From: Pseudovirgaria hyperparasitica
Taxonomy: Eukaryota
Direction: 5' to 3' (one strand)
Length of the DNA stretch: 64,000 bases
Assembly (NCBI GenBank): GCA_010093815.1
Contig: ML996568.1
Part shown: in pieces, positions 1,413 to 38,349 of the stretch
Position numbering within the stretch: the first letter of the stretch is position 1
Layout: each line of letters opens with the position of its first letter
Position numbers and translations under genes: made by a program
Notes under the pieces: generated by a model
Seen by the model: only the letters and a program-made list of their open reading frames with translations
Told to the model about the DNA's origin: nothing
The model's database searches: none

Positions 1413-4400
1413 TCACACGACAACCTCAAGACTCAGCATCCAGTTATCAAACTCATGATAGAAACTCGGCGCCACGCGGGGCTTCCCCTGCAGCATAGTC
1501 TGCAAGTACACCATCGCAACCTCCTCGCGAAACTGCACGCCCTTGGCGACCAACAAGCGGCAAAACAGCAGACTGGCGAGACTACACGCCTTGAGCCAGC
1601 GGGCAGCGACGCCGGCGCCAGCGTCACCAGGTCGGCGGACCGCGGCGTGGACGGCGAGTAAGCCTGCTTTGGCGTCTTGGGTGTCGACGACGGGCTGGTT
1701 GCGGCCTTTCGCGCCGTCGGCATAGGTCTTGAGAAGGGTGAAGGCTTTGTTGCTGAGCTGGGGGCTGCTCGTGGAGCGGATGCAGCGGAGGAGGGAGGGG
1801 ATGAGGGCGAGGGCGAGCGGGCTGCTGCGTTCGCGCTTGACGAAGAGGAGGAGGAGGTCGAGGACGCGGTTTTTGAAGTTGAGGACTGTGGCGCGGGCGT
1901 CGCGGCGTTGGCGGGCGGGTTTGGCTGTTGGGCCGGCTGCTTTGGCGCGCTGGGCGAAGATGGAGCTGAGGGCGGCGTCGGTGGCGAGCATGGCGTCTGA
2001 GTCGAGGGAGGATGCTGAGGAGGCTGGGGATGCGGAGCGTGAGCGGTTGGGGTCGAAGGGGGTTGTGCCGAGGGCGAGGGCGAATTTGCGGTTGAATTCG
2101 GCGGCTTCGTCTTCGTTGTCGTCGTCGTCGTCAGAGGCGGAGACGGCGGAGTCGGAGGATTGGGCGTCGTCGTTGTCGGAGAGCATTTCGACATCGGAGG
2201 CGGCGGCACCATCGATAGAGGCGGCGTCGGAATCTGAGGCTTCGTCGTCCATGTCGGATGCGTCTTGCTGGAAGAGCTCTTTCTGGCCGCTGACAGTCTC
2301 GCTGGTGTCGAGGATGGCGGTCATGGATGCAAGGGACTGGGGGGTTAGGTCTGCCGCAAAGGCAGAGAAGACTTGTTCGGACAGACTGCGTGATAGGGCG
2401 GATGGGCGCGCGGCAAAGCTGAGTATGAGCTCGAAGAGCACATCGAATCCATCCGAGGTCGCGTTGGCACCTTCTGTTATAGACTCGTAACACTGTTTAA
2501 GTTCGTCCAATATCGATACAGCGTCGGGATCGCCGTTGTACACTTGCAGTACTGACATCGATCCAAGAAGCTTCAACGCATTGAGACTGCTGGCTGAAGC
2601 CCCTCCTTTCGCCTTACGGCTCTAGAGCAGGATTAGCAAGTCAAACTGTGGACAGACTTCGGGTGTTTCTCACTTCTTTGTCGATATTTTTCAGCATCTT
2701 GTGAGCCTTCTTCAGACTCTTTGTGATATCTTTGCTCGCCTGAAAGATGAACTCCTGTTTCTCATCCTCTGCTGTGCGCGAGATGAATGCAACGAGTTGG
2801 AAAGCTATCGTCCCAACATTAGTGACCCCCTGAGAGATCAGATGTGTCAAGCATGACAATGTTCTGTCCTTCAACAGAGAACGGTCAGCATCCACGAGTG
2901 GTGGTGACGGCAGATGCTTTGTGGCAGTTTCACTCGGTCGAAAGTACGCAAACTTTGCCAACACTTGAAGGGTCTTGAGATACCACGAGTCCATAGGCTC
3001 AACTTCTTCAAAGTCCGGCTTCGTTCGTTGCCGAATGATGTTCAGCAGCAAGTCTCCGGCAATATGGCGTTGTGTTTCAGCCTCTGTTGCTTCCTCTGCA
3101 GCCGGCTTTACAATTTTCGACTCCAGAAATTCCGTGGTCTCGGACAAAGTGCCATGGTCTGCATGCTTGAGACAGTTTTCAACGGTCTTGGACTTGGTCA
3201 CTCTGTCGAAATCCAAAGATCCGTTGTGTGTCATCAATTCAGGTACAATAATGCGGGCAGACTCGGGCTCCCTATGCACTCTTGAGGACACTTCCTTCAG
3301 TGCTGATTTTGCAGCGGCGTGTAACATCCTGTCAGGCTCCTGGCACTGGTTGATGATACAACGCATAAGATTGGGACTGAAGATCGCCTTAAGAGATGAC
3401 ACTGGCGCTGTCTTGAGCATGTTCATGAATATCTGTAGACCACAGGACTTTCGTTTAGGTGTCGAAGTATTTGTGAACATGTTCTCTGCGAGAAGGTCAG
3501 TGGTAGCCTTTTCGCGCGTATAGAACCCTGAGACCTACGATCTACGATTTGTTTCCAGAACTTTTTGAACTCTACCTCGTCCATGACGCTCAATGCAGAC
3601 ATCAGCACGACGTCCCAGGCGAAGCTAGGTGCAGATCGTGCGTATCCAGATTGGGTCTTCTTTTGACTTCCATTGGCAGAGACTTTTTCGACAGTGTCTT
3701 TGAAGTTTTCGCGCATAACTTGAGCTAGTGTGTGTCGCTCCTTGGAGCAGAGGGGATCATTCTCATGCCAAATATTCGGTGGCAATTCGGAATCGCCAAA
3801 CTTTGACTTATACGCTATCCATATCGCAACACCCTCAGGCGTCTTGAGCATATCATTCGCGTTCATACCTTCCATTAGTTTCTGAATGTACGGGCTCGGG
3901 TCCTTCACTTTGTCGAAGTTCTTTGCAGCATCACAGAGCATCAGACCCGCATTTTCGCGAAGATTCGGAGTAGTCTTTGCAATCTCAAACGCATATTCCA
4001 ATATCGCTGACCAGTGCTCCAAAGAGATGGCCGCGGAGGATTGCAGAATTGCTGAGAGGCCGAACGCTTGGCCTAGAAGAAGAGACTGTTTTTCTTCCTG
4101 TATGATCATTAAATGGGCATCCCTTTCCAGTCCCAAGGTATACTAACCTTGTTCTCTCCATCTCCAGTTGGGCTTGTCTGATTTACGACAAAGCGAATGA
4201 ATTCGCTAAGATTCCAAGGCACTTCAGCCTGCGTAGTTTCCACGGACCCATAAAGTTGTGACACCAATTCCGTCAGAACGAGCGAGAAACCAATGCGGGC
4301 AGATTTTCTATTGCTACCCAGTCCTCTCGTCAATCGCCGTAGGACCTTCTCTATGAGTGCGTTATCGTTTTGAGTCTTCGTATCAACTAGTCGTAACAAA

Positions 4401-4642
4401 TCCTTGGCAGCTTTCAGACGTGTCTCTGAATCTTCAGATGCCAGATTGTCAAGTAGATTCGCTAGCTCCGCGTCAGCTTCCGAGTAAACCGACTTCTTCT
4501 TCCCTGGCGCTGCTGATCCATTCACAGCTGGCCGGGCTGAAGATTCTGCGTGGCCATTTTGATGGGCTTTCTTTTGTCTTTTCTCCGAAAGATTCCCAGC
4601 AGGCTTTTCAGTATCAGCGTTCTGCTTTCTCTTAGTACCCAT
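1413..4642 (-). CDS. POL5: DNA polymerase phi / Pol5 (MYBBP1A-like) rDNA transcription and ribosome biogenesis factor; 4 exons (4642-4148, 4097-3539, 3485-2674, 2621-1413)
   Basis: Motifs LRRLTRGLGSNRKSARIGFSLVLTE, FSPNLMRCIINQ, acidic tract, LSSIF..R, FKNRVLDLL. GT-AG introns join four ORFs in frame. Confidence 0.9.
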
Positions 4643-4939
4643 GGTCGGTCACGGGACAATAAAAGATTGTCTGCTTGTGTTGACGTCGCAAATCTATATC
4701 GAAGCTTTTTTTCCACACTAAAACACGAACTACGCTAGAGCATATACGGCTAGTTCATGTATAGGTAGGGTTGACCCCCACGCGCCGCCCCGCGATAGCC
4801 CCACTCCAATACTCAAGGCTGCCTCAATTCATATGAATGCCTCCAGCTGCTTCCGGGACACATTCCCCTACCCATCTAATCCTGTACTCTTACCTTCGCA
4901 GATACAGACCTCAAAGACCAAGATCAAAATTCCACAGCT

Positions 4940-25524: not shown

Positions 25525-28500
25525 CTACGGCCTAACCCCAAACCGCATCCGCACCCCCATACTAGCAAGCTCACAATCCAACAACCTCAACACCCCCGGC
25601 ACAGCAACAACAGTCACATCCTCGCCACCCACCCACCGAACCCCCTGCCCATCCTCCCAAACCTCACACCTCGCCTCCTTGCCCTCGGCGCGCCGAGCAC
25701 ACCTCCGACACCTGACGGGCCCGCCACTATACTTATTAAACCGGCCACGCGCGGCAAACGGATCAACACTAGGCAGCGTAGCCAGAAACCCGCCGCAGGA
25801 GCGACAGCACCAGGCCTTCTGGTAGTCTGAGCAATTCATGAGGCGATCCTGGAGGAGGTAGGCCGCGCCATGGGCAATCAGGGCGTCGCGCTCCATTTCG
25901 CCGACGCGGATGCCGCCGCCCTTTTTGCGGCCCTTGATGGGCTGGCCGGTGGTCGGGACGACGGGGCCCGTTGTGCGGACCTGGTATTTGTCGTTGACCA
26001 TGTGGCGCAGACGCTGGTAGTAGACGACACCGATGTAGATGTCTGCGGCGAGTTCCTCGCCTGTGATGCCCGAGTACATGGGCTCGTTGCCGTAGTAGTT
26101 GTAGCCTGCGCGACGGAGCTGGTCGCCGAAGAAGGCGACGGCGGTGTGGTCTTCGGACCAGCGCCAGGGGGTGGAGTCCTGGGCGAGGCCGTGCAGGGCG
26201 CCGGATTTGCCGGCGAGGGACTCGACGAACATGCCGATTGTCATGCGGGAGGGGAAGGCGTGCGGGTTGATGATGACGTCGGGCTGGATGCCGGATTCGG
26301 AAAAGGGCATGTCGGTGCTGGGCCAGCGCTGCGAGCAGACGCCCTTTTGGCCGTGGCGGGAGGAGAATTTGTCGCCGATGATGGGCGAGCGCGGGATGCG
26401 GAGCTTGATGCTGAGGGTTTGGCAGGGCGTGTTGCCGTCCTCGGAGCCGATGAGGCGGACTTCTTCGATGAAGGCGTCCTCGTCGTCTTTGTATTTCTCG
26501 ATGTGGGTTTCTTGGTCGTTGTTGATGTATGTGTGGGTGGCGGCGTCGTAGGAGACGTTGTGGTATGCCGCGATCGGGTCGCCCTGTTTGATCTTGGCGC
26601 CGACGATCGGGAGGCCGTCGACGTCTATGATTTCTTTGTATTCCGCCTTGAAGATGCTGCCTGGCGCAATGCCGAAGATCTTGCTGATGGTCTTGGCGGA
26701 GTGTTTGCGGTTGTTTTCCTCCAGTGGGATCTTCTTTGTCTTGTAGATGCTTCCGTGACCGAACCCGCGTTCGTGGCCGGACTTGTTCAATATCATGGCG
26801 TCGTCCATGTCGTACCCGGTGTACGAAATGACGGCCACGACGGCGTTGGTTCCGTTGGGGAAGTTGTCGAAGCCGTAGTCATTATGCAGGGGAGCTCGGA
26901 CAATCGGCGTTTGACCGGCTTGAAGACGATAAGTCTTGTTGTCGGTACGGTACCGCAGTGCTGTTCCTGGTGTTCCCATGGTCTGTTTACCCATCTGACA
27001 CTGATACATATTTCTTGGAGATTGGTTGAAGTCTGAAAAGGGCGTCATATTTGCGACAATGGAGAGGATGTTTGTAGGATCGTACTCGACATGAGTGGTA
27101 TCCCCTGATTCAATCTCATGCTCTCTACACGCAATTGACATATACGGTTGCTCAAACGGACCAACGTAGTCCAGCTTGTCGAGAGGTAGGTACTTGACTG
27201 GTCGGTAGAATCGCGCCGGGTGGGAGAACATGTACACTCCCGGATATGTGCCACCGTTGGAGTTCGGAATATAGCCGACCTCAAGCTCCAGTGGAACGCC
27301 ATGCGTACCCTCTACTTTCCAGTATCGTATTGTCTGTGCAATCATTTTTGCTTGTTTCGGTGCGCAGAATCCCAGTATGCGCCCATCGAGCTGTACTACA
27401 ACGCTATCTTCAGGCGATGCCGACGACTTAGCTTGTATTCCAAGGCCTGCGACCAGGTCTGGGATCTTCGAGGTGTCGACCGGTTTGGTGGAGATTTTAC
27501 AGGTATGGGATAAGTGATTGAGGAGACCACAAGGCGCACCATCAGGCGTATGCACAGGGCACAGGAACCCCCAGCTCTCCGGTAACAGCTTTCTCACTGT
27601 AGTTGTACGTAGCTCGGCAAAGAAGCTACCTCTGTGAATCATGCGGAAATGGCTTATGAAGCGGTAAAAGTTGAGCTTTTCGGCAGCAACGGTAAAGCCC
27701 GACACCTGCTGTAGATCCAGACCTGAAACACTCGTCAGATTGCCAGTGGCAAGAAAGTACTCGAGCATTTGCCCGATATTTTGATTTGTTCGTTTCAGTA
27801 TCTTCGAGTCGAAGGTGCTGGATGCGAAATTTGGAGAGGTGAAGGATACTCCAGGGTTTGATCTCAGCCAATCGTTGATCGATAGACGAATTGAAAGTAG
27901 CCACTCCTCCAGCTTCTCTTTCAAAATCATGCTGTACAAGAATCCACCCAGCAGGACTTCTTGATTCTGCACGGCGTCAGGGTTGTCGACTGCGCATTCA
28001 CCTTCGACGAGCGAGAACAGCTTCTTGATCATGAACAGGAGAAGACGGAACTTGTCTCTGTCCTGGCTCTCGGTAACATTTGAAGCTCCTAGATGAGGCA
28101 ACACAATCCTCCTGAGAAATTCGGTACCAGCCTCTTCGTCCGTGACATCCTCTGCAAGTTGCAGGACGACCTTGAACTTATTGCCTAAATAGGCTCGCGT
28201 CTTCGATCGTCCGTTCAAGTTGTATGCCTTGTATGTTCGGATCATGGCTTCTACGCGGTCAATTACGAATTGCTTGTCGTCTAGGCCTTTCGATCCCGGT
28301 CCACCCACAATGCCCTCGAATATTTCGCGATCATTCGTCTCCACGAGAGCCTTTAGTATCATGGACACCGGGATCAGGTATTCGTTCTTCCGCCACGAAC
28401 ATCGAAACGTGACATTGCCGTCGTTGAGGTAGTGGAGGCATATAGTTTGCGATGTCTCGTCTGGTCGCGCAGATCGTAATAGTATGCCATGTTTGGTGTA

Positions 28501-29222
28501 TCGCGGGCCCCGCTTTGTAAATGACGGTCGGTTAATCGCGAGAGGGTAATTTCGCTTCGTTAGGATGAGCATTCGAATGAGCTTCTCGATCCCGTTCACA
28601 ATAAAATAGCCACCCAGCTCTTCAGACTCCTCCTTGGATTTCACCAACTGATATGGGGTCATATTCTGCAGGTGACAGCGATTCGTCTATAGTGCCCGGT
28701 CAGAACCTCAAGTACTGCTATATATAGAGCATTACTTACCCGAAGCATGACTGGAAGCTGGCCGAATTCCCGCACAGACTCGAGCCATTCTCCGCTGTTT
28801 ATCTTATACTCTAGCCTTACTCTCAGTCTTGCGCGATATGATGAATGCCTCTCCCTGCACTCGGCCGGCAGTATAGTTCTGTTAAGCGTGAACTTATTCG
28901 TAGGCGGTAATTCAGGCTTCTCCAGCAGAACTTCCTTGATACGCACGCTCAGGCGATTCCTTGTGGGCGCACCGCTTGCCACATCCTTTCCTGAGCCCGC
29001 ATCCAAATATACCTTGGTGCCAATCTCTTTCAATCCTTCACTGAGGATTCCGCCCTTCTCGAAAATCGCATTGAACGAGTTCACATGGGGCTCTATGGCA
29101 GCAGCGAGCATAGGATAGGCGGTGTGATCTTTAGGGGGGTTTCGAAAGAGGTGCTGCCGCCGCAGCGTGTCGAACTCTGTAGACCATTTTGTGCTCGTGG
29201 GTTTGGAGGCCGGAGGTGCCAT
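25525..29222 (-). CDS. RPA2: RNA polymerase I second-largest subunit; intron 28739-28687
   Basis: GGYFIVNGIEKLIR, RKLLPESWGFLCPVHTPDGAPCGL, GYDMDDAM, GDKFSSRHGQKG, YYQRLRHMVNDK, GIRVGEMERD, C-terminal zinc ligands. Confidence 0.97.
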
Positions 29223-30314
29223 TTCGCAGTCGGAGGTGGGTCCCGGATCGGGACAATTCGACGACGATAAGGTTGGGGGTGAGAAGTGAAGAGAGTGTCT
29301 CTCCTTAGATCGCACCCATGCTCAATACTCGAGTCTAAAAGGAGTTGTCAGGGTGGTGAATGGTGCAGATTATTGACCAAAGTTGTGGCGCATAAAAGTG
29401 CAAGCAGACCCGAAAAAAGTTTGGAATTTGCTGCTCGCCGATCGCGCCAAGGGTAGCTGCGATAAGATAAGAGCTGAGGCAGACATATAGATGCCTGAGG
29501 CAGGTATGAAGATCTGACTCCACTAACTTCAGGCAGAGAATAGTATGTAGTAATTAGCCTCAGGCAGTAACGAGTCACTGCAGCCTGAGGCTCAAAGTCC
29601 GTGTCCCGCCTGCACAAATGGAGGGTAATTAAGAGACAGACGGCTTGCATTCCCGCCCAGTGATTCTGCTGCACCGTCGTGTATTGTGCATTAATATATG
29701 TATAAAAGTTCCTACAGTATATATACTACAGTATTCTCATTGCACAGTCGCGCACATATGGGGCCAGAAGTGGTTCAGGACTCCAGCGAGAGAGAGAGGA
29801 CTAAGCGCCTTTGCTTTGCTTTTTCCAAGCTTCTGCCTCAATAGAGAAGAGAGGATTTGGGTAGCACCCGGTAATAGACGCTACAGCCTACAGCCTAGAA
29901 TTAGTTATTTGCATCATGCGAGCTCTGTTCGTCACATAATAATTTCAGAGATTGTTTACCTAGCTGCCTACTGTTTGACTGCCGTTCTATATACTTTGTG
30001 CCGCAAACTACGCCGCTGTCCGGCCGTGTTGTCACGTTTTCCGTTTGCGTTTGTTGCCCACTCCCGCAGCCGCAGCACCAGTTTCCAGCTCCCCAGCTCG
30101 GTCGGTCGCGCCTTGGGCTTTTTTGGTTTTCAAGCCACACTCAAAAAGAGCCCCGCAGCACACGCCAAACTTACCTACCGACCAGGATTCCTCATTCACT
30201 GCACACCATCACCAACTTACCTTACCCTCTTTTCCGTTTCCATCTCCTGCAAACGCTCGCCCTGACTCTCATTCTTCGCTCCCCTCGACAACTTTGTCTG
30301 ATTGTCTTGCCATC

Positions 30315-33866: not shown

Positions 33867-34568
33867 AATCGCCTACGCGCTTTACAAAGACAACATACAC
33901 TACGTTCACTTCGACGAGACTAAAATGGTGCTATGGGCTTACATTTTCTGACATGCCCATCAAATCGTAAAATAACAATGGTCAGGCAAAAGCGTCTGCA
34001 GTAATGGACGGTGGCTAGGGTTTGGGCTTTCGCGGAAATTGGGAGAACGGCGTTATGAAGAGGTGATATCCCCGTGCTGCTAGTAACAATACTTCATACA
34101 AAATAGTTAAATGGCCACTCAAGGATTCATTTTCCATTGCACTGTTCGGGAATGAGAATATATGCGTTTGATGTGCTGTACTCTCACGTTCTATAATATA
34201 TGTTTTGACCGAAACCGGAGCTACGCGAATTGCACTAGTAATAATTGAACGTGGTTTGTTGAGGAGAGAAGCCAATAGAGTTGTGGAGCTGAGGTCATGT
34301 GACCAAGTCCATCTAATCAATCTGATTCTCGATTTGATTCGCCACACCGATGATGTAGCGCTGCCTCGGATCCGACTTTGCGCAGGACCGACACCGACAA
34401 GTGCGGGCGTCATTTATCAAACTGTCGACTCTAGATTCACCATCCACCATTCACCACCTCGTAATCCAACCCTTCAACATCCACCTACCATCGTCTCTCA
34501 TCTTCAAAGAGTCGCCAAAGGAACTTTTATCCCCCTACAAGCTACGCGAACACCTTACAATTATCATC

Positions 34569-35371
34569 ATGCTGCAGAGATTTGTAGCTACCGCCCCGGC
34601 TCGCGCTGGCAGGATTATCTCAACCGCTGCAAGACCTCAAGTCGCCGCTCCACTCAGAACCGCACAGCCAGCAGTTTCACGACTCCAATCAAGGCGCAAC
34701 TACCATGAAAAAGATAAGCGTCCCTCGCGTTACGACTGTTCAGTCGTGCTGCGGTCGTCTCACCTCCCAGTGATCGACCGACGCGCTCCTCCCAGGGCAG
34801 TGCCCAAGCCTGACATATCACCTTTAAAATAGATTGGAACGCTCAGCTAACACTCGCAGCACTGCTCGACCATTACAACAACCCCCGCAATGTTGGATCA
34901 ATGTTGAAGACTGATACCGATGTCGGAACGGCACTCGTTGGCGCACCGGCGTGCGGAGACGTGATAAAGCTTCAGATCCGAGTGGACCCCAACGATAACA
35001 CCATCAGCGATGTCAAGTTCAAGGCCTTTGGATGTGGTTCGGCAATTGCAAGTTCAAGTTACTTGACAGAGTTGGTGCGTGGGATGAAGCTTGAGGATGC
35101 GGCCAAGATTCGGGATGCCGAAATTGCGAAGGAATTGTGCTTGCCACCTGTGAAGCGTAAGTTCGCATTACTAGCCCGTGATTCTTCTGCATACTGATGT
35201 TCTCGTGTAGTTCACTGCTCTGTGCTCGCGGAGGATGCCATCAAGTCGGCAATCTCGAACTACTATACCAAGAACCCGAAGGCCAAAGCGACCGATCTCG
35301 CTGGAACAGGAGGTGTGATGCCGAAAATTGAGATTGAGATGCAAGATACGCCCCAGCAGGCGACTGCATGA
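34569..35371 (+). CDS. ISU1: Mitochondrial Fe-S cluster scaffold Isu1/IscU; introns 34714-34862 (AT-AC) and 35157-35210 (GT-AG)
   Basis: Presequence ending RRNYHEK, then VLDHYNNPRNVG, GAPACGDV, FGCGSAIASSS, LPPVKLHCS. Confidence 0.95.
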
Positions 35372-36690
35372 TGGGCTCACAGCCTTTACTGGTCTTCTCT
35401 TCTTTGTTCAATAGTTCTTGATTGGTGTTATTGCATCACATTCATTAGGCGCAGGTGGTGTCGGTGAGCCTCTCTTTCATGTCATGTGCGTCAATGATGC
35501 ACTCGCTTCATGGCTCGATATCAAAGCAGTATTTCGACGATCTTTTTTGATCAGTAGTTAGCGGGCAAAAGTGTTCTAAGAGAGAAATGAAACTTTATGA
35601 ATAATACAATCTAAAAAGGCGCGTACAACGGTGATGATTGTCAAGGAGATTGAAATGTCCCAAACAGTGGTCAATACAATGAGTCGTAAGAATGAGAAAA
35701 AGAGATTATGGGACGGAGTTTGAGCACCTTTATGGCATCTATTCTTAGTGGCGAATGAACGGGTCTTTGGATATCTGATGGCTTTTTTTTATCAGATGCC
35801 TCCTGGCTCCTGCCTGCCTGCCACCCTACTAAAGGTATGCGACGATTACCAGCAAGACAAGTAATAAGTCATACCACATTCGAGGCGACAATGGATGATT
35901 GCAACCAAACCCCGGGTACACACACTCGCGCTTATGAGCAAGTCTATACAGCTTTTACGTATGTATGTATATATACCGTCCCTCTGAAGTCCCGATCCGA
36001 CTACCACCGCCACGAACCTACACATCAAATTCGGATCAGATCAAATCCCATAGTCCGTCAACAAAGATGCAGCAAACATGGATGCAGTGCCATTACATTC
36101 CAGCACACAGATGATATCGCAAACACGCAAACAAACGCTAGCATATAACCCAGCTGTGCATATATCTGATGATAATTCTATATCTCATATTGTAATGGGA
36201 TAAAGCTATGTACGCTCGATGTTATTACATACAGGAAGCACAAGCTTACGACTCTACGCGACAGCCCTAGAAAAATAGATATTTTCAATATGCTGCAGTA
36301 ATTATATATGGACGTACAGTACTTGCAGCCGCTCAGCAACAGCAACAACGAGCGTTGGTAGCCGTTGCTTGCCGCCACTGCGAGCCGGCTGCTTTGCCGA
36401 GTCTGCTCCCCGGACCGCGCCCCCGCCCAAGCTCTAATAGTTACTAACTAGTGGCTGTGGGGTCGTGTGTGGTAGCCTGTAGGTAAGCTTTCCCTCGAGG
36501 ATCTCCGGTTGTGTGCTTCGAATGGGATGTACCCGCGTGAAGCTGCCGAAGTACACGAGGTGCTGGACAGGGCTTGTTTGTGTTGCTTTTATGGGCTTAT
36601 AGGGGTGTGGATGCCCGGTTTGTTATGCGCTGATCCTACCCTCTCAGTTGCCTGCGACTTTCTGAGCTGTTTGGGCTTGCTTTGATCGGG

Positions 36691-38349
36691 ATGGTTTCCT
36701 TCACACTGTCGGTGCGGGCTACGGCCTTGTACTCGCGGTCGGCCTCAAGGGTGAGTTAGCTGCTTGTATGGTGTGCAGGTCAATTGCTGATGTTCGGTAG
36801 CCGTTTGCGTCCACTCGATCGTTCTCCTGCACGGCACGCTTCTATGAGATTAACAAGATATATCCGTCGGCGAAAGAGGCTATCAAGGATATGAAATCAG
36901 ACTCAACACTCCTCTGTGGTGGCTTCGGATTGTCTGGCGTAGCTAACACGCTCATAAACGAAGTCAAAGCCACTCCCCATATCAAAGGACTTACTGCAGT
37001 TTCAAATAATGCCGGTGTCCCGGGCAGTGGGCTGGGACTGCTGCTGGAGTCTAAGCAGATCAAGAAGATGATTGCGAGTTATATTGGCGAGAACAAGGTT
37101 CTGGAATCGCAATATTTGGACGGCTCAGTTGAGGTCGAGCTCACTCCACAGGGCACGCTGGCAGAGAGGTGTCGCGCTGGTGGCCACGGCATACCGGCTT
37201 TCTACACTCCAGCAGCATTTGGCACGGTGGTGCAGACCGGAGAGCTACCCATCCGCCACAATCCTGACGGCACGGTCGCTGAATACTCGAAGCCTAAGGA
37301 TGTCAAGGTCTTCAATGGCAAGAGCTATATCATGGAGGAAGCAATCAAAGGTGACTATGCCTTTATCAAATGCCACAAAGCAGACAAGCTGGGCAATCTC
37401 CAATTCCGCCTGGCTGCGCAGAACTTCAACGGCGCCATGGCACGCAATGCGACTGTCACCATTGTCGAAGCAGACGAGATTGTTGAGCCCGGCGAGATCG
37501 ACCCGGTCGCCGTCCACGTCCCTGGTATCTATGTCGACCGTGTTATCCAGTCTCTCGCTCCCAAGGGTATCGAGAAAATCGTCAACGCAAAAGCGCCCGG
37601 CGAGGAGAGCACCGCTGGCATCCTCGGCACCGGCGACACAGCTAGCAAGCGCGAGCGTATAGTGCGGCGTGCGGCCAAGGAGTTCAAGAACGGCATGTAC
37701 GCAAACTTAGGCATTGGCATGCCGATGCTGGCGCCCAGCTTCGTCGATCCGTCTGTCGAGGTCCAGCTACAGTCTGAGAACGGCCTGCTGGGACTCGGTC
37801 CGTATCCGCAGAAGGGCGAAGAGGATCCGGATCTGATCAATGCGGGCAAGGAGACGGTAACGCTGAACCCGGGTGCCTCGTGCTTTGGGTCGGACGAGTC
37901 GTTTGGCATGATCCGCGCAGGGCGAATTGATTTGACGATCCTGGGTGGCATGCAAGTCAGTGCAAAGGGTGATTTGGCGAATTGGATGTTGCCGGGCAAG
38001 GTCAAGGGTTTCGGTGGTGCAATGGACTTGGTATCGAATCCGCAGAATACGAAGGTTGTAGTGACAATGGAGCATACCGATAAGAAGGGCAGGCCAAAGA
38101 TCTTGAAGCAGTGTGAGTTCCCGCTCACGGGCAAGGCTTGTGTGTCGAGGATTATTACGGATCTGGTAAGTGTTGCTTGAGCTGCGAATATGAAGCCGTA
38201 TACTGACTGGTGAATAGTGTGTATTTGATGTTGACTTTACGAACGGTCTTACCTTGGTTGAGCTTGCGGACGGTGTTACTGTGGATGAGATTAAGTCGAA
38301 GACGGAAGCACCTTTCAAGGTGGCAGACGAGATCAAGCCGATGCTGTGA
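36691..38349 (+). CDS. Succinyl-CoA:3-ketoacid CoA transferase (SCOT), mitochondrial; introns about 36751-36800 and 38166-38216
   Basis: CGGFGLSG, VSNNAG, ELTPQGTLAER, ANLGIGMP, LQSENG (catalytic Glu), GGAMDLV. Confidence 0.95.

What the first reader, a model, noticed from the sequence alone, without database searches (positions are those of the whole stretch)
35140..35240. ISU1 carries Val at the 'frataxin-bypass' Met position (LPPVKLHCSVLAEDA)
Seen: codon 35222-35224 is GTG, giving LHCS-V-LAEDA. Other departures from the usual motifs are KFKAFGC (usually KFKTFGC) and IRDAEIA (usually IKNTEIA). Established: eukaryotic Isu proteins nearly always have Met here (yeast M141, human M140), many bacterial IscU have Ile/Leu/Val, and in yeast replacing this Met with Ile/Leu/Val/Cys suppresses loss of frataxin. 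Inference: this fungus may have a naturally frataxin-independent ISC scaffold, possibly with relaxed or lost YFH1.
Basis: partly seen in the sequence, partly recalled or inferred. Interest (0 to 1): 0.75.

Follow-up and report, generated by a model that had tools for sequence, protein, structure and literature searches.

The report
Fungal Fe-S scaffold with valine switch
The mitochondrial iron-sulfur scaffold gene of this leaf-surface fungus really does carry valine where nearly all eukaryotes have methionine, a change that in yeast lets cells live without frataxin, but whether this fungus still has or needs frataxin could not be checked here.

Summary
Observation confirmed. Codon 35222-35224 is GTG, giving LPPVKLHCSVLAEDA in a three-exon ISU1 gene (34569-35371, + strand, 199 aa). 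The gene is 100% identical to the partial ISU1 record of Pseudovirgaria hyperparasitica. Spliced transcript contigs from a second study carry the same letters, so it is not an assembly error.

Val is unique among the relatives I could see. Of 192 relatives with the motif, 190 have Met. The only other Val is a bacterial-type IscU. The gene also has five further private replacements (G72A, M83I, T103A, N133D, T134A) at positions invariant in 153 other Pezizomycotina, in yeast and human ISCU, and nearly invariant in 71 bacterial Val-type IscU. A neighbouring control gene shows less of this excess (6/76 vs 3/175, p=0.024).

The frataxin inference stays open: no genome is held for this window. The literature gives precedents. 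Natural Leu occurs in Aspergillus nidulans and Cryptococcus Isu1. Giardia (Val) and Plasmodium (Leu) both lack frataxin. Bypass in mammals is only partial.

My verdict: a real, rare, lineage-specific bypass-type scaffold, and a new member of a known small set of eukaryotic exceptions. Frataxin is probably retained.

Side finding: intron 1 is a conserved AT-AC intron that breaks many public gene models.

The parts
34569..34713 (+). ISU1 exon 1: start codon and Arg-rich N-terminal presequence, ending ...YHEK plus the first base of the Val codon
   Evidence: ATG located. The exon end is fixed by the joint 34713>34863 in the spliced contigs of X3 and X4. The junction reads YHEKVLDHY, as in 127 of 235 relatives.
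34714..34862 (+). Intron 1, 149 nt, non-canonical AT..AC ends. 5' end ATAAGC, CTAAC box at 34847-34851. A CAG at 34857-34859 is skipped.
   Evidence: table 5: 'skips 149, ends AT..AC' in X3 and X4, absent from DNA run X1. Sequence. The same AT..AC intron is in loci L005 and L006.
34863..35156 (+). ISU1 exon 2: most of the NifU_N/IscU domain, with two Cys ligands, the Asp, and LPPVK
   Evidence: Pfam PF01592, E=1.1e-38. 100% identical to P0001. Joints.
35157..35210 (+). Intron 2, 54 nt, GT..AG. It splits the codon of the Leu before HCS.
   Evidence: table 5: 'skips 54, GT..AG'.
35211..35371 (+). ISU1 exon 3: LHCSVLAEDA..., the C-terminal helix and fungal tail. Stop TGA at 35369-35371.
   Evidence: PF01592 C-terminal part.
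35222..35224 (+). GTG = Val151, the position of yeast Isu1 M141 and human ISCU M140
   Evidence: Alignment to yeast 5t0v (hcsMl) and human ISCU chains. 0 other letters in transcript contigs.
34931..34933 (+). GCA = Ala72, a private change. Gly in all 153 relatives, in yeast and human, and in 71/71 bacterial Val-type IscU.
34964..34966 (+). ATA = Ile83, a private change two residues after the Asp ligand. Met in 153/153 relatives and in 70/71 bacterial loci.
35024..35026 (+). GCC = Ala103 in KFKAFGC, a private change. Thr in 153/153 relatives and 71/71 bacterial loci.
35114..35119 (+). GAT GCC = Asp133 Ala134 in IRDAEIA, both private. Asn-Thr in 153/153 relatives. In bacterial loci, Asn in 71/71 and Thr in 65/71.

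Best explanation
This is the transcribed, correctly spliced nuclear orthologue of ISU1, the mitochondrial Fe-S cluster scaffold, in Pseudovirgaria hyperparasitica (Dothideomycetes, Acrospermales). On the branch to this species, the Met two residues after the third cluster-ligand Cys changed to Val by a single A>G transition. Five other replacements arose at positions that are otherwise fixed from bacteria to humans. The three Cys, the Asp, the His and LPPVK are all intact, so the protein is a working scaffold. By analogy with yeast M141V and with bacterial IscU, the Val most likely makes sulfur transfer and cluster formation on the scaffold less dependent on frataxin, that is, a partial bypass. 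Frataxin itself is probably still encoded and used, perhaps with a matching change at the residue that packs on this Met (human FXN Pro163). Shown: the sequence, the splicing, the orthology, and the uniqueness among relatives. Inferred: the functional effect and the presence of frataxin.
For: Sequence and gene model. Family: PF01592, E=1.1e-38. Orthology: 100% to the P. hyperparasitica record, and 86-92% to Dothideomycete and other Pezizomycotina Isu1 over exon 2. It shares both intron positions with relatives. It is transcribed with the GTG: X3 and X4 contigs, 0 differences. Uniqueness: 190 Met vs 2 Val among 192 motif-bearing proteins of 235, and 153/153 Met in the core set. All 8 fungal-type metagenome loci have Met. 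Six private changes fall at columns invariant in all others (6/76 by leave-one-out; the next highest sequence has 2). The neighbouring control gene has 3/175, Fisher p=0.024. Function of the position: Yoon 2015, M141I/L/V/C bypass. Roche 2015, E. coli I108M makes CyaY essential. Fox 2019, M140 packs on FXN Pro163, with Met:Pro vs Ile:Gly pairing.
Against: There is no functional data for this protein. Human ISCU M140I/L/V behaved like wild type in vitro and did not bypass FXN (PMC6098246 abstract). Mouse M141I rescues only partly. The five extra changes are not bacterial-like: 71 Val-type bacterial IscU keep G, M, T, N and mostly T. So the protein is not simply a reversion to the prokaryotic state, and the combined effect is unpredictable. 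With the looser 97% criterion, the excess over the control gene is not significant (6/88 vs 7/242, p=0.12), and only one control gene was used. Frataxin presence, its Pro163-equivalent residue and ISU copy number were not examined, since no genome is held.
Confidence: 0.55

Rival explanations
1. Near-neutral drift. Met>Val is a conservative change tolerated while frataxin is present, fixed by chance in an isolated lineage. Frataxin dependence is physiologically unchanged.
For: Human M140V is indistinguishable from wild type in vitro. Sporadic single-species exceptions with Leu exist in fungi whose congeners keep Met: A. nidulans vs A. fumigatus and A. clavatus in the S2 table. The species is also among the highest in private changes in the control gene (7/242, second of 120).
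Against: The column is invariant in 190 fungal-type relatives, which argues for strong constraint. Six private hits fall on invariant columns in one small protein, against 3/175 in the control. In yeast, M141V has a clear phenotype.
Confidence: 0.3
2. True frataxin independence. The frataxin gene is lost or degenerate in this fungus, and the scaffold and its partners have been remodelled to work without it.
For: The two eukaryotic lineages with a mitochondrial-type IscU and a non-Met residue whose frataxin status I could check both lack frataxin. They are Giardia (Val) and Plasmodium (Leu). Three of the extra private changes sit next to the Leu, Val and Phe reported as the Nfs1-binding patch, and close to the Ala-loop that touches FXN. 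This hints at altered partner contacts.
Against: I know of no aerobic fungus reported without frataxin (recalled). Jedelsky 2011 states that frataxin is otherwise invariably present with ISC machinery. Bypass alleles do not restore full function in mammals.
Confidence: 0.08
3. A divergent paralogue. A canonical Met-bearing ISU is the main scaffold elsewhere in the genome, and this copy is a relaxed or specialised duplicate.
For: Yoon 2015 notes that eukaryotic exceptions often have a second, Met-bearing gene: wheat, bumble bee, cucumber, yak. An excess of changes at invariant sites is what a relaxed duplicate would show.
Against: It sits at the orthologous gene structure, including the conserved AT-AC intron. 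It is transcribed. No second protein from this species appears among the 235 best hits of two searches. No second NifU_N domain was found among the 140 ORFs of 110 aa or more scanned in the window. Pezizomycotina usually have one ISU gene (recalled).
Confidence: 0.06
4. A sequencing or assembly error, or a bacterial contaminant or transferred gene.
For: None found.
Against: The letters are identical in DNA run X1 and in the spliced contigs of X3 and X4 from another study. There are two spliceosomal introns, a fungal presequence and tail, and about 90% identity to Dothideomycete Isu1. Bacterial Val-type IscU are only 57-66% identical.
Confidence: 0.01

Closest known systems
Saccharomyces cerevisiae Isu1 M141V/I/L/C frataxin-bypass alleles (Yoon et al. 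2015, PMC4440810)
   Same: The same protein family, the same motif LPPVK-LH-CS-X-LA, and the same residue (Val) at X. The yeast wild-type chain 5t0v aligns with E=4.6e-51.
   Different: The yeast alleles are laboratory suppressors in an otherwise wild-type protein. Here the Val is natural and comes with five more replacements at invariant sites. Rescue of a yfh1 deletion has not been tested.
Natural fungal exceptions with Leu: Aspergillus nidulans AN4655.2 and Cryptococcus neoformans Isu1-like protein (S2 table of PMC4440810)
   Same: Vertically inherited fungal Isu1 with a bypass-type aliphatic residue at X, as isolated exceptions among Met-bearing relatives.
   Different: They carry Leu, not Val. 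I did not see their sequences, so I do not know whether they carry extra changes. Their frataxin status was not checked here.
Giardia intestinalis IscU (lppvk lh csv la) and Plasmodium IscU (Leu)
   Same: Eukaryotic ISC-type scaffolds with non-Met at X. The Giardia 12-residue block is identical to the window's.
   Different: Both are parasites with reduced or unusual organelles, and both lack frataxin. The present organism is a fungus with ordinary mitochondrial genes around the locus, and its frataxin status is unknown.
Bacterial IscU with Val/Ile/Leu at position 108 (Roche et al. 2015, PMC4440780)
   Same: The same residue class at the position. 71 metagenome loci with Val were retrieved.
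   Different: Only 57-66% identical, with no introns or presequence. They keep Gly, Met, Thr, Asn and mostly Thr at the five other positions changed here.

Membership tests
IscU/Isu Fe-S scaffold (Pfam NifU_N, PF01592) | Significant match to the family profile | tested here: met
   Exon 2 ORF: E=1.1e-38, 132.6 bits against a cut-off of 22. PDB hits to yeast Isu1 and human ISCU, E=1e-48 to 1e-51.
IscU/Isu Fe-S scaffold (Pfam NifU_N, PF01592) | Three cluster-ligand Cys plus the Asp and His, and the LPPVK chaperone motif | tested here: met
   APACGD, FGCGS and LPPVKLHCS are all present in the translation and aligned to yeast and human.
Mitochondrial (eukaryotic) Isu1 orthologue | Closest to fungal Isu1, spliceosomal introns at shared positions, N-terminal presequence | tested here: met
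   86-92% identity to Pezizomycotina Isu1. Intron 1 is shared with L005 and L006, and by inference with 77 protein models. The Arg-rich N-terminus before YHEK has no acidic residue. Import into mitochondria was not tested.
Mitochondrial (eukaryotic) Isu1 orthologue | Met at the position after Cys-Ser (the eukaryotic hallmark in Yoon 2015) | tested here: not met
   Val151. This is the finding itself.
Frataxin-bypass class of scaffolds | Ile, Leu, Val or Cys at X of LPPVK-LH-CS-X-LA | tested here: met
   X = Val. The class is defined in PMC4440810.
Frataxin-bypass class of scaffolds | Supports Fe-S assembly and growth without frataxin | not testable with these tools
   This needs yeast yfh1-deletion complementation or in vitro reconstitution.
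Frataxin-less eukaryote (Giardia and Plasmodium type) | No frataxin (PF01491) gene in the genome | not testable with these tools
   No genome is held. No PF01491 hit among 140 window ORFs of 110 aa or more, which says nothing about the rest of the genome.
U2-type (type II) AT-AC intron | AT..AC termini with a GT-AG-like 5' site (ATAAG) and an ordinary branch box, not the U12 consensus | tested here: met
   The termini are proven by spliced contigs. ATAAGC and CTAAC are read from the sequence. The assignment to the U2 spliceosome is inferred. That Ascomycota lack U12 is recalled.

The most novel reading that the evidence does not exclude
Pseudovirgaria hyperparasitica is the first aerobic, mitochondrion-bearing fungus whose core ISC machinery has escaped frataxin. 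Either its frataxin gene is lost or decayed, or it has co-evolved radically, for example with loss of the Pro that packs on the scaffold Met. On this reading, the six private scaffold changes are the natural multi-site solution to a full bypass, which the single M141 substitutions only partly achieve.
Probability: 0.1. Interest if true: 0.85.

Novelty: new member of a known kind. Interest (0 to 1): 0.5.

Why it matters
The Met-to-aliphatic switch in ISCU is the only known single-residue route around frataxin loss, which is the defect in Friedreich ataxia. In mammals it works only partly. A free-living fungus that fixed Val naturally, together with five further changes at universally conserved scaffold positions, is a ready-made natural experiment. 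If its frataxin is altered or gone, the extra changes would point to what else is needed for a complete bypass. If frataxin is intact, it shows that the Met rule is softer in fungi than the 2015 survey suggested. The check is cheap, because the assembly and transcriptome are public. Separately, the conserved AT-AC intron explains why this gene is mis-modelled or marked partial in many fungal annotations.

Tried and rejected
1. A whole-genome search for frataxin (PF01491) and a second NifU_N gene: no genome is held for this window, so both questions stay open.

2. Earlier notes of this scan on frataxin, ISU1 or AT-AC introns: nothing relevant.

3. GT or GC donors for intron 1: four in-frame candidates gave insertions not seen in relatives. 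They were rejected once the transcripts showed AT..AC.

4. The second Val-bearing hit, P0002, was rejected as a fungal relative. It has no presequence, a bacterial-type start and an IHCSV block, an internal tandem duplication, and sits on a 748-nt contig.

5. P0140, the only other sequence with many deviations (5), keeps Met and deviates at other sites.

6. Run X5 (a metatranscriptome) holds only a 152-nt contig on exon 1 (34565-34713). It does not reach the Val codon and says nothing about it.

7. The idea that the five extra changes are bacterial-like was rejected.

8. Literature look-ups for the frataxin status of Cryptococcus and A. nidulans gave nothing usable.

9. A direct comparison of P0140 with a written-out consensus was not run. 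The comparison was made by aligning stored proteins instead.

10. I had no coordinates of a model or solved structure, so spatial clustering of the six changes was not computed.

11. Supplement 1 of PMC4440810 (S1 table) was not opened. Its caption was read.

Full report
WHAT IS THERE

The region 34569-35371 on the + strand encodes a NifU_N/IscU-type protein. The exon 2 ORF matches PF01592 with E=1.1e-38. The best database hit, P0001, is 100% identical over the query. [quoted passage not shown] That species is a Dothideomycete of the order Acrospermales. The next hits are Isu1 of other Dothideomycetes, Lecanoromycetes, Eurotiomycetes and Leotiomycetes, at 86-92% identity over exon 2.

GENE MODEL

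I laid public contigs of four runs on 34450-35500.
- A DNA run (X1, possibly the source of this assembly) covers the stretch colinearly.
- Two runs of another study (X3, X4; same sample) each hold one contig that skips 34714-34862 (149 nt, ends AT..AC) and 35157-35210 (54 nt, GT..AG). Neither contig has any other difference.
- These are therefore transcript assemblies.
- They fix the model: exon 1 is 34569-34713, exon 2 is 34863-35156, exon 3 is 35211-35371, and the product is 199 aa.
- The exon 1/2 junction then reads YHEKVLDHY, the form found in 127 of 235 relatives.
- The four GT/GC donors I first tried gave insertions that relatives lack.

THE OBSERVATION

- Codon 35222-35224 is GTG. The product reads LPPVKLHCSVLAEDA, with Val at residue 151.
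- The alignment to yeast Isu1 (5t0v, hcsMl) and to human ISCU chains places it at yeast M141 and human M140.
- The transcript contigs carry the same letters. An error in the genome record is excluded as far as contigs can show.

HOW UNUSUAL IT IS

- Two protein searches, with exon 2 and with the C-terminal 64 residues, returned 235 distinct proteins.
- Of these, 192 contain HCSxL[AG]ED: 190 with Met and 2 with Val. The other 43 are truncated or run into intron 2.
- One of the two Val proteins is the window's own. The other (P0002) is a bacterial-type IscU. It has no presequence, a tandem internal duplication and an IHCSV block, and lies on a 748-nt contig.
- A scan of metagenome contigs gave 80 loci: 71 with Val, 8 with Met, and 1 without the motif. 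The Val loci are uninterrupted ORFs, 57-66% identical, and bacterial in type. L001-L006 and L033, fungal by their YHEK-VLDHY junctions and introns, are among the Met loci; I did not identify the eighth.
- No close relative of the species is in these collections. The best non-self hit is 92% identical. So the age of the change on this branch cannot be bracketed.

MORE THAN ONE CHANGE

I compared the 110-residue core (DHY...AEDAIKSA) with 153 other Pezizomycotina sequences of the same length. There were 107 distinct sequences in the set of 154; P0001 and P0002 were left out, as were 8 sequences of other lengths.

The window's protein differs at six columns that are invariant in all 153:
- G72A
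- M83I
- T103A
- N133D
- T134A
- M151V

It also has S63L, at a variable column where Leu is never seen.

By leave-one-out, it has 6 changes at 76 columns invariant in all others. 148 sequences have 0, three have 1 and two have 2.

Yeast and human scaffolds share the ancestral residues at all five extra positions. So do the 71 bacterial Val-type loci: G 71/71, M 70/71, T 71/71, N 71/71, T 65/71. The protein is therefore not simply 'prokaryote-like'. It departs from the whole family at positions around the assembly site.

By my mapping from the anchors C69, C95, C138 and M140 given in the papers, the positions correspond as follows:
- M83 is two residues after the Asp ligand.
- T103 is three residues before the second Cys.
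- G72, M83 and T103 each sit directly next to the Leu, Val and Phe reported as the Nfs1-binding patch of Isu1 (review PMC8199681, passages).

Whether the six positions touch each other in space I could not compute.

A CONTROL FOR LINEAGE EFFECTS

- The neighbouring CoA-transferase gene (36801-38177; P0236, 100% to the same species) was treated the same way, with its 119 best relatives.
- The species has 3 private changes at 175 invariant columns. The distribution over the 120 sequences is 97 with 0, 16 with 1, 4 with 2, 2 with 3 and 1 with 6.
- ISU1 at 6/76 against the control at 3/175 gives Fisher p=0.024.
- With the looser criterion (columns 97% or more conserved), the figures are 6/88 vs 7/242, p=0.12. 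There the species ranks second of 120 in the control as well.
- So part of the signal is a generally divergent lineage, and part looks specific to ISU1. One control gene is thin support.

WHAT THE POSITION DOES (FROM PAPERS)

- Yoon et al. 2015 (PMC4440810; passages, section 13, S2 table):
  - Met at X of LPPVK-LH-CS-X-LA is almost exclusive to eukaryotes (302 of 307 Met entries).
  - M141I/L/V/C, and no other residue, make yeast frataxin-independent. M141V was recovered 24 times in their randomisation screen.
- Roche et al. 2015 (PMC4440780, passages): E. coli IscU I108M makes CyaY essential and halves the rate of cluster formation.
- Fox et al. 2019 (PMC6525205, passages): in the human complex M140 packs against FXN Pro163. 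Ile would clash with it unless that position is Gly, as in bacteria. The Ala-loop A66-D71 contacts FXN Asn151.
- Against a simple reading:
  - Recombinant human M140I/L/V behaved like wild type and gave no bypass in vitro (PMC6098246, abstract only).
  - Mouse M141I rescues viability of FXN-null cells but not mitochondrial Fe-S enzymes or embryos (bioRxiv 10.1101/2025.09.03.673074, passages).

PRECEDENTS

- The 2015 S2 table already lists natural eukaryotic exceptions. Among fungi these are Aspergillus nidulans AN4655.2 and a Cryptococcus neoformans Isu1-like protein, both with Leu. The text also names Plasmodium species and Nematocida with Leu.
- Of the seven eukaryotic entries among 348 in the Val sheet, those named in the text and seen in my term searches of S2 are Entamoeba (NIF-type), Giardia (with the same 12-residue block as the window) and Aegilops, which also has a Met copy. 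I did not list all seven. None of those seen is a fungus. A fungal Val is thus new relative to that survey; I did not search for later surveys.
- Two of these lineages are reported to lack frataxin:
  - Giardia (PMC3044749, passage: not found in three genomes).
  - Plasmodium (PMC12974877, passage).
- I did not establish the frataxin status of A. nidulans, Cryptococcus or Nematocida.

WHAT REMAINS OPEN

- I therefore could not look for frataxin or for a second ISU gene in this fungus.
- Among the window's 140 stop-to-stop ORFs of 110 aa or more, only one has NifU_N and none has a frataxin domain.
- The neighbours are ordinary housekeeping genes.

VERDICT

- The best reading (0.55) is a functional orthologous scaffold with a natural bypass-type residue that lowers, but probably does not remove, the need for frataxin.
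- Near-neutral drift (0.30) is the main rival.
- Frataxin loss (0.08) and a hidden Met paralogue (0.06) are both cheap to test on the public assembly.
- It is a new member of a small known set of eukaryotic exceptions. Its added interest lies in the five accompanying changes at universally conserved sites.

SIDE FINDING: THE AT-AC INTRON

- Intron 1 is an AT-AC intron with a GT-AG-like 5' site (ATAAGC) and a CTAAC box 12 nt from the 3' end. It skips a CAG three bases upstream of the AC that is used.
- The same AT..AC intron is present at the same site in two fungal metagenome loci (L005, L006). Two others (L004, L033) have no intron there.
- Among 235 protein models, 27 run from HEK into 'D..' (the exon's last G plus the intron's AT). 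Another 50 enter as LLDHY or LIDHY from the intron's 3' end. This shows that the intron is widespread and often mis-annotated.
- It also explains why the NCBI record of this species is 'partial' and starts at LLDHY.

Noticed in passing
window 34714-34862: Intron 1 of ISU1 has AT..AC ends with a U2-like 5' site (ATAAGC) and a CTAAC box. A CAG three bases before the AC that is used is skipped. The intron is proven by spliced contigs. It is conserved in loci L005 and L006 and absent in L004 and L033.
   Followed up: yes
P0001 and 77 of 235 relatives' protein models: Public gene models of fungal ISU1 are often wrong at this intron. 27 read HEK then D.. into the intron, and 50 start or continue as LLDHY/LIDHY from its 3' end. 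The NCBI model for this species is 'partial' for that reason and lacks exon 1.
   Followed up: partly
window 34565-34713 (run X5): A 2025 metatranscriptome labelled as another organism holds a 152-nt contig identical to exon 1 that stops at the exon end. So this fungus, or a near-identical relative, is probably present and transcribing ISU1 in that sample. The contig does not reach the Val codon.
   Followed up: no
window 34904-34906, 34964-34966, 35024-35026, 35114-35119, 35222-35224: Four of the six private replacements (T103A, N133D, T134A, M151V) would each need an A>G change at the first codon position on the coding strand, judged from the residues and this gene's codons (relatives' DNA not compared). 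M83I would need G>A at the third position. Both Met residues flanking the cluster ligands are replaced by beta-branched aliphatics. This could be mutation bias or selection against oxidisable Met; it was not tested.
   Followed up: no
window 1-64000: The neighbourhood is ordinary housekeeping: RabGAP-TBC, DNA polymerase phi (four ORF pieces, 1416-4648, - strand), Ist1, an Ariadne-type RBR ligase, eIF2B-epsilon, an HSF plus response-regulator (Skn7-like) gene, the RNA polymerase I second-largest subunit (25528-29321, - strand), an RCR protein just upstream of ISU1, a CoA-transferase just downstream, a family-2 haem peroxidase and exonuclease V. No Fe-S assembly partner is nearby.
   Followed up: partly
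P0002: A 194-aa bacterial-type IscU with an internal tandem duplication of the first about 65 residues of the domain, on a 748-nt contig from an NCBI source. It is probably an assembly chimera.
   Followed up: no
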